DNA of 64,000 nucleotides, from contig OZ024742.1 in assembly GCA_964016885.1 (NCBI GenBank), positions 207,328,001 through 207,392,000 on the forward strand, in the 5' to 3' direction. Each line of letters opens with the position of its first letter. The stretch's first letter is position 1. This DNA comes from Eledone cirrhosa (taxonomy: Eukaryota). The notes under the pieces were generated by a model. It ran no database searches. It saw only the letters and a program-made list of their open reading frames with translations, and was not told where the DNA came from. A program made the translations under genes and the position numbers. Positions 4,040-63,752 of the stretch are shown here, piece by piece.

Positions 4040-4105
4040 GTTCCCTGACGATTTGAGATTTTCGCAGCTCAGGCTGAGTTTGCTGAATGAAACTGCAGTA
4101 GGGAC
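4040..4105 (+). ncRNA. Type I hammerhead ribozyme motif with palindromic stem III
   Basis: gttcc-CTGACGA-(long stem II)-GAA-ACTGCAGT-A-gggac; stem I gttcc/gggac; GUA triplet. A degenerate second copy lies at ~4451-4518 (GAAA>TAAA). Confidence 0.65.
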
Positions 4106-4619
4106 GCTGAGTAAATAGATAAAGATTTCTTCCAGCAAGTAATTATTTAATGCTCTGAATAATTGATTTTTTATAAATTCCCTCATCGAGCCAAATTGGT
4201 ATCTGTCAGACTCCCTCATATGTATGTATGTACTTGAGTATGTATATCTTCACTATATATGTTAAATACTCCCCTACGGTTGAGTAAATAATTTGGCCGA
4301 ATCGGACTGCTATATTTAGCAGCATTTCCTACTTGCCATTGTCCATATATCTCTGCCTTTCTGTAGGACGCTAACCACGTGATAATTCTCCAGTTTGAAT
4401 TTAATCACGGCTAGTGGACAATTCAGTCAATTTTTTCTCTTCCTCGAAAATGTTCCCTGACGATTCGAGCTTTTCACAGCCTAGGCTGAGTTTGCTGAAT
4501 TAAACTACAGTATGGACATTGAGTAAATAGATAAATATTTCTTTATTTTATCTTCGTTTCAGCAAGTAATTTTATATATATATATGCGCTGGGTAGGGAA
4601 TCGTGTTTGCATCAATAAC

Positions 4620-5175
4620 GCAAGGCTCCAAAGGAAAACGAGCACAGCATAATTCTAAAAAAATCTACAAAGATTTTGTTAAGAAAAATGTAAAATTTCT
4701 GCGTTTAGATATAAATCAATTGGAAAAGCAAGCTCCTGATCGTAATAATGGGGAAAGATGATTAAAACAGTGTGTCAACTATTGGAGGGAAAAAAATAAA
4801 GAAAAAGAAAAAGTGGGCTAAAACAAGAACTAAGAAAGTATGAGTTGGTGAGTGAAAATGTTGATTATTAGAATTGCAATTTCTGTCACCGTTTCCTTCT
4901 GACTAACGCCGGTTTTGCAGACCATATGAAAACATCTGAAAAAACAATGACACAGGCAGATTATGTTGCAAATCTCCCTGTTACTGTTTGTCAAAATGTA
5001 GCAAGATAAGTAAGACAACCTCTGGGTTAAAATGACATATGAAGGTTCATCAATACAAAATTCCACATCCTGATCCAATAAACTGAGTACACACACTGGC
5101 ATACATTTGTTAATTGTACCAAAGACAGTTGTAAATCAGTTGCTGGATTGAAAAGTCACCTCGGTGCACATGGTT
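4620..5175 (+). pseudogene. Degenerate 3' end of an RTE-like LINE ORF with C2H2-like fingers
   Basis: Hand translation: GKRAQHNSKKIYKDFVKKNVKFLRLDINQLEKQAPDR, then CNFCHRFLLTNAGFADHMK, KCSKISKTTSGLK*HMKVH and CNCTKDSCKSVAGLKSHLGAH. Confidence 0.55.
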
Positions 5176-5727
5176 GTTTGGAAACTTGTTGGAGGAATTG
5201 CGATGATGTGGAGACGGCTATCATCTGACAAGATGAAGCAATCATCATATATATGTACATTTAAATTGGTGAGTGCACTCGCGCGGGCATGCGTGTGTGT
5301 TTCGTGGTTGTGTGTATATATGTATATAAGAAACAATTTACAGAAAGAGAAATTTCGGAATTGGTACTTTACGTTATGCAGCATGGCAGTTGTCTACTAA
5401 ATCTCTAATTCTCTGTCTAAATTCATTAGACAGAGATTTTAGGAAATATTATAATACCACATTACAAATGTTTTAGTTGAGTTAATCCTTTGTAGGCATA
5501 TTCCCATAGAGAAGTGCACACATATATTAAGTGATAAATATATATATGTACATATATATATATATATATATATATATATAACTCTCTCTCTCTCTCTCTA
5601 TATATATATATATATATATATATATATATATATATATATATATATATATATATATATATATATATATATATATACATATATATAAAATAATTAAGTCAAA
5701 TTTGTAAAATTTGGCTTCGTTTATTAT

Positions 5728-5782
5728 ACTGCTATATATATTTCGGTCACAGCTATCATTGGCTGTGAACTCTTCAGGCAGT
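5728..5782 (-). ncRNA. Minimal type I hammerhead ribozyme
   Basis: Reverse complement: actgc-CTGAAGA-gttcacagc caatgata gctgtgacc-GAA-ATATATAT-A-gcagt; perfect 5-bp stem I, palindromic stem III. Confidence 0.8.
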
Positions 5783-5971
5783 CCAAATTGGTGTGGGAAA
5801 GACAGGTGCACATGTTGTTGAAGTGTGTTTTACTCCGTGAATACATCGATATATCCAGCTCCTGGTTGTGTTGTTATTTCTCTGGGCAACTGGATTCATA
5901 TATATATATATATATGTATATATATATAAGATAATTAAGTCAAATATGTAAAATTTGGCTTCGTTTATTAT

Positions 5972-6026
5972 ACTGCTATATATATTTCGGTGACAGCTAT
6001 CATTGGCTGTGAACTCTTCAGGCAGT
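5972..6026 (-). ncRNA. Minimal type I hammerhead ribozyme (second copy of the dimer)
   Basis: Same fold as 5728-5782 with a substitution in stem II. Confidence 0.75.
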
Positions 6027-62100: not shown

Positions 62101-62491
62101 AACATTTGGAATATTCTAGAGACTAAAATAACAAACGTCGGATGTATATCATCGAATAAATAAGAATACAGAGAGATTCTCTCAACAGGAAAATATATGC
62201 TAAGATAACAATCAAGTAAAAGGCCTATACTACACCGTTTATTTACATAATGGAAGCAACAGTGTAATGATGGCTGCTGTGGAAGTGTTCAAACATCACT
62301 TAGAAAAATTCCAATCCTATGTAAAAATCCTTCTATCTTCAACAGATGATAATAAGACAATAACAACGCCCAACAACTCATCACCATAGTTATACAAGCA
62401 TTGATAAACTAGAAATACATACATGAAGCACATATTTCATAGTACAATAGAACTCACAACGAATCTGCTAAATATATATATATATATATAT

Positions 62492-62779
62492 AGAAAAAAA
62501 GATGAAATCGAAAATACAACTGGAGTCTTATTTTTTTTTTAAATATATATATTTATTTGGTTCCTTTACCGGTTTCGCAGTTCTTCTGCTTTTCAAAAGT
62601 AGAGTCGAGATGGAGGGTCTGTGGTTTTTCTCACATCTGAGAAAAACCACAGACCCTCCATCTCAACTCTACTTTTGAAAAGCAGAAGAACTGCGAAACC
62701 GGTAAAGGAACCAAATAAATATATATATTTTAAAAAAAAATAAGACTCCAGTTGCATTTTCGATTTCATCTTTTTTTCT
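62492..62779. repeat. 288-bp near-perfect palindrome with a U3-A8 hammerhead variant in each arm
   Basis: Centre tca-catc-tga; 62672-62707 (+) reads ctt-TTGAAAA-gcag aagaa ctgc-GAA-ACCGGT-A-aag; the mirror copy is 62564-62599 (-). Confidence 0.85.
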
Positions 62780-62880
62780 TTATACTTTCACTCGTGTAGG
62801 ACACCTCGGTTATTTTTCATTTTGTAAAAAAACCTCACTTTCTAATATATATATATATATATATATATATATATATATAT

Positions 62881-63400
62881 ATACAAATAAAATACAGAGT
62901 TACTAACTGATATTGATACCCTGCAATTAACAAGCTCAAAGTATAAATACTGAGCATTCTATAATAATATATTTGGAAATAAAGACAGTAAATTGTGTGT
63001 CTAAAATTACGAGGGTTGAAATACCACATTGGTTTGATAAATTTAACCTGAAGCAAACGGAAGATATAGAATATATATATACAGACCGTCTCAATAACTA
63101 TTTCATCTCTCGGACAGATTAGAGATTTCATCTATTTTGCCCTGAAAATTGTGTTTGTAACAGATAATCCGTAGGTTTTCCTCAGCACGAGATAAGATCA
63201 AATGGAACAAACACATACAACTAAAAGCCACACGAATGAAAATCTCACCTCGTGTTCTGGATGTTAGAAGTGGTGTGAGTGGATATGATATAATGCTCAG
63301 TATTTATACTTTGAGCTTGTTAATTGCAGGGTATCAATATGAGTTAGTAACTCTATATTTTATTTGTATTTCGGCTCCCTAACTAGGTGAGCGTATACGT
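62881..63400. repeat. pLTR-like element with a ~78-bp inverted terminal copy
   Basis: 62881-62958 is the reverse complement of 63292-63369; followed by ttcggctccct...tgagc, like the pLTR-ORF junction at 37160. Confidence 0.65.
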
Positions 63401-63444
63401 TGGGTGTATTAAGGCTATTATTTTTAGCATATCATTTTAATACA

Positions 63445-63752
63445 ACGCTATTTCAGAGCATCAATCCTAATTTTCAATGTTTGCTGGACTGGTAATCTCT
63501 CTGTATAATCAGTTCCTGATTATTACTGCAATTCTATAAGAATCCCGCATCTATAATTTTCGTTAAGGCAGGGAGTACGTTGCTCTGAGGAACACCAACA
63601 GTGTGTAACAGAATCTGTTAGTTTCTCTCCCTTCTTTGCCGAAAAAAAGAAATAAGTAACATAGTCACTACTTTAAAATGATAGCGCAAAGTCTTCAAAA
63701 TATTTTTAATTAAACATACGGTATATTGCCAAATATACTATACATACATTCA
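63445..63752 (+). mobile_element. Full diverged monomer homologous to the 310-bp array unit
   Basis: Starts cgctatttcagagcat and is colinear to the unit end; the HHR position reads gct-CTGAGGA-acac caaca gtgt-GTA-ACAG aat CTGT-T-agt (A13 mutated). Confidence 0.75.

What the first reader, a model, noticed from the sequence alone, without database searches (positions are those of the whole stretch)
4040..63620. High density and variety of hammerhead motifs, with different palindromic stem III 'keys'
Seen: outside the array, HHR-like folds at 4040, 4451, 5728, 5972, 11053, 13206, 15491, 20167, 46430, 47346, 55480, 57436, ~59010-59165, 61124, 62564, 62672 and 63585. Palindromic stem III sequences differ by family: ACGCGT, ACTGCAGT, ATATATAT, ACGT, ACAATTGT, ACCGGT. 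Established: palindromic stem III lets minimal HHRs fold as dimers. Inference: each palindrome could restrict dimerisation to its own family, and any transcript crossing this region could be affected by the intact copies.
Basis: partly seen in the sequence, partly recalled or inferred. Interest (0 to 1): 0.7.

Follow-up and report, generated by a model that had tools for sequence, protein, structure and literature searches.

The report
Penelope-element hammerheads crowding an animal genome
The window is littered with self-cutting-RNA (hammerhead) motifs carried by many repeat families, likely all Penelope-type jumping genes or their non-coding derivatives; this is a known kind at an ordinary density for this genome, and the palindromic third stems are real but shared between families, so they are not unique family keys.

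Summary
The motifs are real: 25 intact-core type I hammerheads (16 in the 310-bp array, 9 dispersed) against 0.11 in shuffles. Dispersed density is ordinary here: 110 hits in 119 other 10-kb stretches (92/Mb, about 280,000 extrapolated). The motifs sit in short repeats in (TA)n, often as back-to-back pairs; three families tie to Penelope-like ORFs. Self-complementary stem III is far above chance (64 of 84 versus 0 of 15), as published for these elements. The key idea holds only in part: five palindromes are shared among 33 families, ten families are not self-complementary, sharing is not below chance, and a dimer must also swap stem I strands. Most families are still predicted to exclude one another (503 of 528 pairs), likely by drift. 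No host gene or RNA was found. Side finding: a very abundant Hydra-like element has a fixed U4A core (14,941 versus 152 copies) and a hairpin stem III, predicted weak or dead. The scan reached the same verdict earlier on other DNA of this genome (e1-8664523).

The parts
4039..4106 (+). Intact type I hammerhead, palindrome ACTGCAGT; rare family
   Evidence: the pattern used matches 2 places in the genome
4451..4518 (+). Decayed direct-repeat partner of 4045, 412 nt downstream; GAAA box, palindrome and stem I broken
5727..5783 (-). Intact hammerhead, ATATATAT, family F12; one of two 244-bp tandem units
5971..6027 (-). Second F12 unit; core, palindrome and stem I intact, basal stem II mismatch; possible cis dimer partner of 5777
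10340..10379 (-).
11051..11101 (-). Intact core; odd-length stem III ACACTGT, not a perfect palindrome
13208..13268 (+). Intact hammerhead, ATATATAT, family F2; family copies bracket Hydra-like coding sequence elsewhere
15078..15123 (-).
15489..15527 (-). Intact minimal hammerhead, ACGT, family F14
19809..19877 (-). Decayed relative of the ACC-NNN-GGT families, U16.1 lost
20161..20206 (+). Core boxes intact, stem I lost, non-palindromic stem III; same family as 63585
22079..22168 (-).
26499..26541 (+). F5 copy (ACTAGT) with C3 mutated
36487..37050 (.). Three copies (+36493, -36726, +37004) of the U4A-core, hairpin-stem-III motif of family F1; each further damaged
37145..38607 (+). Broken Hydra-like Penelope-type ORF downstream of the F1 motif
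41751..41840 (+). Inverted duplicate of 22162 with C3 mutated
44537..44634 (-). Decayed F10 copy (U3-A8 family, long hairpin stem III)
45290..45901 (-). Penelope-type C-terminal endonuclease remnant
46429..46479 (+). Decayed F4 copy
47346..47396 (-). Intact F4 hammerhead, stem III of 4 bp with an 8-nt loop; left member of a divergent pair around the array
48253..53124 (.). 310-bp retrozyme-like array; 11 minus-strand then 5 plus-strand hammerheads, ACGCGT
   Evidence: 4,541 exact copies of the 37-nt motif genome-wide
55480..55530 (+). Intact F4 hammerhead, right member of the divergent pair
55579..57564 (-). Broken Hydra-like Penelope-type ORF
57435..57477 (+). ACAATTGT hammerhead with G8U; family mostly has an intact core
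   Evidence: 2,321 pattern matches; 99 of the first 100 listed have G8
59007..59166 (.). Decayed divergent pair (-59070 G5A; +59103 stems broken), relatives of F24
61120..61169 (-). U3-A8 core, ACCGGT, stem I only 2 bp; doubtful or decayed
62561..62710 (.). Divergent pair of F9 motifs, U3-A8 core, ACCGGT, stem I 3 bp here
63579..63625 (+). Decayed copy, GAAA box broken

Best explanation
The window holds type I hammerhead motifs of many dispersed repeat families, likely the terminal repeats (pLTRs) of Penelope-like retroelements and their non-coding retrozyme derivatives, and their self-complementary stem III is predicted to let two same-family copies on one transcript fold as a double hammerhead and cut. 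Shown: motifs, families, copy numbers, (TA)n association, back-to-back geometry, ORF linkage for F1, F2 and F3, and excess self-complementarity. Inferred: cleavage needs a tandem partner, which releases a unit-length RNA that the element's reverse transcriptase and GIY-YIG endonuclease insert into (TA)n. Family selectivity comes from stem I and stem III together and is likely a by-product of sequence drift, because the partner is normally the identical copy in cis. Most lone copies are likely inert insertion ends.
For: 25 hits against 0.11 shuffled. 110 hits in 1.19 Mb against 1.8. 25 of 26 opposite-strand same-family pairs are divergent, the inverted layout described for Penelope-like elements in PMC8557442. 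96 of 122 motifs lie within 200 nt of (TA)5+ against 30% of random positions, with recurring 3' distances in most families. The F1 motif lies about 930 nt after the stop codon in 15 of 20 ORF loci and about 187 nt before the ORF in 8 of 20, inside a 246-nt direct repeat in L175. F3 lies 206-210 nt after endonuclease homology and 131-147 nt before ORF-start homology. F2 pairs bracket Hydra-like coding sequence. With no stem III requirement, 64 of 84 real hits are self-complementary against 0 of 15 pooled shuffled hits. Homodimer folds score below two monomer hammerhead folds in 32 of 33 families. Identical palindromes: 7 of 171 pairs against a null of 3.2, or 3 of 120 against 2.2 after dropping three sister families.
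Against: Only 20 of 123 motifs have same-strand Penelope-type coding homology within 700 nt (6.2% for random positions), and 13 of 19 families showed none in that test (its seeds came from the same sample), so Penelope origin is inferred for most families. No cleavage or expression data. Energies are nearest-neighbour values of imposed folds, without competing folds or tertiary contacts. 13 of the 33 families are single copies chosen by eye.
Confidence: 0.82

Rival explanations
1. The palindromes are a selected family code that keeps co-expressed retroelement RNAs from cutting or hijacking each other in trans.
For: 26 distinct stem III sequences among 33 families; 503 of 528 family pairs cannot form one active site, median penalty 16.4 kcal/mol; F7 versus F2/F16 cross-pair in stem I but differ in palindrome.
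Against: Five palindromes are shared; ATATATAT alone has 48,780 matches (control 181) and falls into 6 clusters among 30 loci, one or two probably chance hits; neither palindrome sharing nor stem I cross-pairing (51 of 528 against a null of 33.7, range 18-60) is below chance; F2/F16 and F12/F23 are predicted to cross-dimerise freely.
Confidence: 0.08
2. Abundant retrozyme or element RNAs pair in trans with lone same-family copies in host pre-mRNAs and cut them, so the dispersed copies are a genome-wide regulatory or toxic load.
For: The double-hammerhead topology allows an intermolecular partner (modelled); about 280,000 intact-core sites are extrapolated; retrozyme RNAs are abundant in other animals (PMC7229834) and under-represented in genes in Xenopus (bioRxiv 10.64898/2026.07.22.740005).
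Against: No host-gene domain among the window's scanned ORFs; minimal hammerheads cut poorly even as cis dimers (PMC4209133); 8 of 9 Xenopus dimer elements did not cleave (bioRxiv preprint); cores among copies are not more damaged than flanks (0.060 versus 0.079, a biased comparison).
Confidence: 0.07
3. The motifs are chance folds in AT-rich, microsatellite-rich DNA.
Against: Over 200-fold excess in the window and about 60-fold in the sample over shuffles; multi-copy families; reversed-pattern controls of 0 to 181 against thousands of matches.
Confidence: 0.01

Closest known systems
Minimal and palindromic-helix-III hammerheads of metazoan Penelope-like elements (Cervera & De la Pena 2014, PMC4209133, parts 1-2 of 4 read; Lunse et al. 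2017, not held, seen only as cited in PMC6765202)
   Same: Type I, short helix I, palindromic positions 15.2-16.2, many heterogeneous families per genome, mostly solo copies, opposite-strand pairs close together, U3-A8 variant, dimer model.
   Different: Much higher count here (about 92/Mb, some 280,000 extrapolated, against about 2,000-9,000 per genome in that paper; descriptors differ). Palindromes reach 10 nt. Many families have a mismatch, not G-C, at 10.1-11.1. One dominant family has U4A.
Hydra clade of Penelope-like elements (Craig et al. 2021, PMC8557442, passages and section 11 read)
   Same: RW(R) and DKT motifs, CxCx5C linker, CxxC and CxH in the endonuclease, C-terminal endonuclease, (TA)n targets, hammerhead in the pLTR.
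   Different: Described as few families, generally under 3 kb, with canonical hammerheads; here one family has 25,940 first-look candidates, a 3.26-kb unit and a non-canonical core.
Animal non-LTR retrozymes (Cervera & de la Pena 2020, PMC7229834, part 2 of 6 and passages; Li et al. 2026 preprint 10.64898/2026.07.22.740005, parts 1-3 of 5)
   Same: Non-coding tandem units of 244-310 bp with one type I hammerhead each; linked to Penelope-like pLTRs.
   Different: Arrays here are two-armed and divergent; expression and circular RNA are not shown for this genome.
Repeat-associated hammerheads with palindromic loop III (Perreault et al. 2011, PMC3088659, passages, section 8 and the Figure S8 legend)
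   Same: Varied palindromic stem/loop III that allows dimer pairing; U3-A8 covariation; U10.1-U11.1 mismatch.
   Different: U4C is mentioned as a natural variant; U4A does not appear in the text I read (figures not held).

Membership tests
Type I hammerhead ribozyme | Core CUGANGA, GAAA and UH in type I order with stems I-III | tested here: met
Type I hammerhead ribozyme | Site-specific self-cleavage | not testable with these tools
   needs an in vitro assay or RNA end sequencing
Type I hammerhead ribozyme | Match to an Rfam hammerhead model | tested here: not met
   0 matches at gathering score; none among the 150 of 288 listed at E<=10
Dimer-type PLE hammerheads | Short self-complementary stem III | tested here: met
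   23 of 33 families; 64 of 84 versus 0 of 15. Not met by 10 families, e.g. F1, F4, F10
Dimer-type PLE hammerheads | Located in the pLTR of a Penelope-like element | tested here: inconclusive
   met for F1, F3, F2; no ORF link for most other families
Penelope-like insertions | Inverted copy adjacent; (TA)n target | tested here: met
   25 of 26 pairs divergent; 96 of 122 near (TA)n
Hydra clade | RWK-like and DKT motifs, CxCx5C linker, CxxC and CxH, C-terminal endonuclease | tested here: met
   read directly from the L148 and L154 ORFs printed (RWR, DKT, CNCRNRADC in L154, CDLC, CKH)
Hydra clade | Placement in the Hydra clade on an RT tree | not tested
   no reference proteins on hand; Pfam gave no hit for L178
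Hydra clade | Canonical hammerhead | tested here: not met
   F1 has U4A in 14,941 exact matches against 152 with another base; met by F2
Non-LTR retrozyme (array; 5777/6021 pair) | Non-coding tandem units of 150-450 bp, one type I hammerhead each | tested here: met
   310-bp x16 and 244-bp x2
Non-LTR retrozyme (array; 5777/6021 pair) | Linear and circular RNA expressed | not testable with these tools
   no RNA holder listed
Type-SGC permuted hammerhead | Blocks in S-G-C order | tested here: not met
   0 in the window and 0 in 1.19 Mb with a strict descriptor; weak stems would be missed

The most novel reading that the evidence does not exclude
This genome carries the densest hammerhead load of any in the papers I read (about 300,000 intact-core motifs in 3 Gb, at least 20 multi-copy families with mostly orthogonal two-part locks), and one of its most abundant young autonomous Penelope-like families spread to tens of thousands of copies with a fixed U4A core that disables or throttles cleavage: a natural experiment on whether these elements need their ribozyme at all.
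Probability: 0.35. Interest if true: 0.55.

Novelty: new member of a known kind. Interest (0 to 1): 0.3.

Why it matters
As a finding about this window it matters little: the kind is published and the density is normal for the genome. What remains of use: (1) a large panel of natural dimeric hammerheads with predicted own-family selectivity, where shared-palindrome and shared-stem-I family pairs give clean controls for how dimers choose partners; (2) the U4A family, which bears on the open question (PMC8557442) whether hammerheads help Penelope-like elements or merely ride on them; (3) a copy number high enough to test for strand bias in introns.

Tried and rejected
Strict descriptors without slack at the base of stem II found only 1 motif; the slack was added after seeing the array motif, and the shuffle controls were rerun with it. 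The repeat finder was swamped by microsatellites. A DNA search of the genome with the array unit returned nothing, as common words are skipped. Seven other core variants gave no multi-copy family (A6U had 5 hits against 0.6, all singletons). Non-circular permutations: none above shuffles. No RNA holder listed; contigs of four runs of unknown kind said nothing on expression. Host genes: 131 of 137 repeat-poor ORFs of the window and 200 kb of flanks scanned, the other 6; hits were transposon domains only, plus one sub-threshold zinc-finger match in a flank; short exons would be missed. The core-versus-flank decay test is biased because its queries were chosen for intact cores. Lunse et al. 2017 is not held. 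Literature searches for a family-specific key, heterodimer tests, octopus hammerheads or U4A found no such report; unseen supplements of PMC4209133, PMC3088659 and PMC8557442, and the Lunse paper, may already hold some of this.

Full report
Setting. The window is AT-rich, microsatellite-rich animal DNA at G000:C3:207328001-207392000 in a 3.0-Gb genome. Its long ORFs with Pfam hits are LINE fragments; others are Penelope-type remnants. That the host looks like a cephalopod is my recall plus the wording of earlier notes, not a test.

Observation. A type I descriptor with intact core finds 24 motifs (mean 0.04 in 200 shuffles), or 25 with wider loops (0.11 in 100 shuffles): 16 in the 310-bp array and 9 dispersed. 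All 25 positions checked have homologues among the fetched loci. The 57441 copy is a G8U mutant of a family with 2,321 pattern matches; the 4045 pattern matches only 2 places. Rfam does not detect them.

Density. I took 119 evenly spaced 10-kb stretches from 21 large contigs. They hold 110 intact-core motifs, 11 of them one array, against 1.8 in shuffles: 92 per Mb (bootstrap 66-124), about 280,000 if extrapolated. Nine or more in 64 kb has P=0.17. The 200 kb of flanks hold only 5. The window is therefore unremarkable apart from its array. Direct counts agree with the scale: 4,541 exact array motifs and 48,780 matches for the ATATATAT type against 181 for the reversed control. Published counts I read are about 2,000-9,000 per genome (PMC4209133) and 126,247 in axolotl (PMC7229834), with other descriptors.

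What carries them. 181 motifs from sample and window form 45 clusters, 20 with several members. Same-family copies on opposite strands within 3 kb are divergent in 25 of 26 cases; 10 further pairs are on one strand. 96 of 122 lie within 200 nt of (TA)n, against 30% of random positions. A search with the window's 37658 ORF gave 25,940 candidates, 150 scored at 90% identity or more, many with 713-aa frames; these show the motifs that PMC8557442 lists for the Hydra clade, though I built no tree. F1 sits in the pLTR of this element, F3 beside another Penelope-type ORF, and F2 pairs bracket a second Hydra-like ORF. Overall only 20 of 123 motifs have same-strand coding homology within 700 nt, so most are short ends or non-coding units, as reported in PMC4209133.

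The key hypothesis. I used 33 families: 20 multi-member and 13 singletons picked by eye; 12 singletons were dropped as likely chance or irregular. Nineteen have perfect palindromes and 23 are self-complementary with G-U. With the stem III requirement removed, 64 of 84 real hits are self-complementary against 0 of 15 pooled from 15 shuffles, so the feature is not made by my descriptor. But ATATATAT is shared by three families and ACTAGT, ACCATGGT, ACAATTGT and ACCGGT by two each; identical pairs are 7 of 171 against a null of 3.2, or 3 of 120 against 2.2 after dropping three sisters. By copies, 62 of 133 belong to hairpin or imperfect families. In a double hammerhead, each active site takes its 5' stem I strand from one copy and its cleaved strand from the other (this follows from the type I topology), so stem I must cross-pair too. 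Of 528 family pairs, 14 have fully compatible stem III, 51 have 4 or more cross-pairs in stem I on one side, and 25 can form a site by a lenient rule; the median penalty against homodimers is 16.4 kcal/mol. The families of the window's two ATATATAT motifs are separated only by stem I (penalty 5.1), F16/F7 only by the palindrome (1.75), and F2/F16 and F12/F23 not at all. Stem I cross-pairing is within its null range. Selectivity is thus predicted, shared between two stems, and shows no sign of selection for distinctness.

Mechanism. Established from the papers read: short palindromic helix III prevents monomer cleavage and permits dimers; activity is low in vitro; cleavage is proposed to release unit RNAs that may circularise (PMC4209133, PMC6765202, PMC7229834). 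Inferred here: transcription across two pLTRs or tandem units gives a cis double hammerhead, whose partner is identical by descent, so any palindrome works and palindromes drift. In the window, cis partners exist for the array and likely for 5777/6021; the other intact copies have no close intact same-strand partner. No host-gene domain was found in the window, so the claim about passing transcripts is untested.

Side finding. It gave 22 descriptor hits against 1.8 shuffled (21 belong to the family), 14,941 exact genome matches against 152 with another base at position 4, and this core in 22 of 25 aligned copies. For one natural copy the hammerhead fold scores -5.5 kcal/mol against -8.8 for a rod in which C3-A4 pairs with the GAAA box; with flanks, the innermost stem I pair has probability 0.014 (I ran no such control on other families). 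PMC3088659 mentions a natural U4C that lowers activity; I found no U4A report, but could not see figures, supplements or Lunse et al. 2017. A weak or dead ribozyme in a thriving element is a prediction, not a result.

Earlier notes. e1-8664523 reached the same verdict on another piece of this genome; I saw it after my own tests, and it is not independent support. e1-8664462 suggested a type-SGC family; my strict scan found none here.

Verdict. Real, known in kind, ordinary in density for this genome; the family-key idea survives only as a two-stem, likely unselected selectivity. Interest 0.3.

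Noticed in passing
window 36487-37050; L166-L185: Family F1: U4A core fixed in 14,941 exact copies, hairpin stem III, in the pLTR of a 713-aa Hydra-like element with a 3.26-kb unit; predicted to misfold.
   Followed up: partly
window 48253-53124; first 100 matches: The 310-bp arrays listed on C1 nearly all run minus then plus (two divergent arms), like Penelope-type insertions. The window's array lies between a divergent F4 pair whose core and stem II start resemble the array's.
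   Followed up: partly
L009, L013, L022, L023, L027 and others (family F3): Abundant family with AGAACT or AGGACT stem III; a dimer would hold tandem A-A or G-A mismatches in its centre.
   Followed up: no
L031, L053, L115, L135 (family F13): U4C cores in three of four copies, and ACAATTGT versus ACAGCTGT, a compensatory double change in the palindrome.
   Followed up: no
window 8947-9094 and 40517-40634: Hairpins made of two back-to-back 3' halves of hammerhead families F10 and F15 (truncated before the CUGANGA box).
   Followed up: no
window 21296-22396 and 41523-42597: About 1.1 kb duplicated in inverted orientation 19 kb apart at 94-99% identity, including the ACCATGGT hammerhead; only one copy keeps C3.
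   Followed up: no
window 921-2499: 33-bp minisatellite of 48 copies with open frames on both strands.
   Followed up: no
random sample: Penelope-type coding homology covers 4.9% of 1.19 Mb, with what look like at least three ORF types (L178, L114/L031, L011/L044).
   Followed up: no
L068-L069; L072:170-409: Helitron (PIF1, Helitron_like_N) and zinc-finger transposase remnants in the upstream flank.
   Followed up: no
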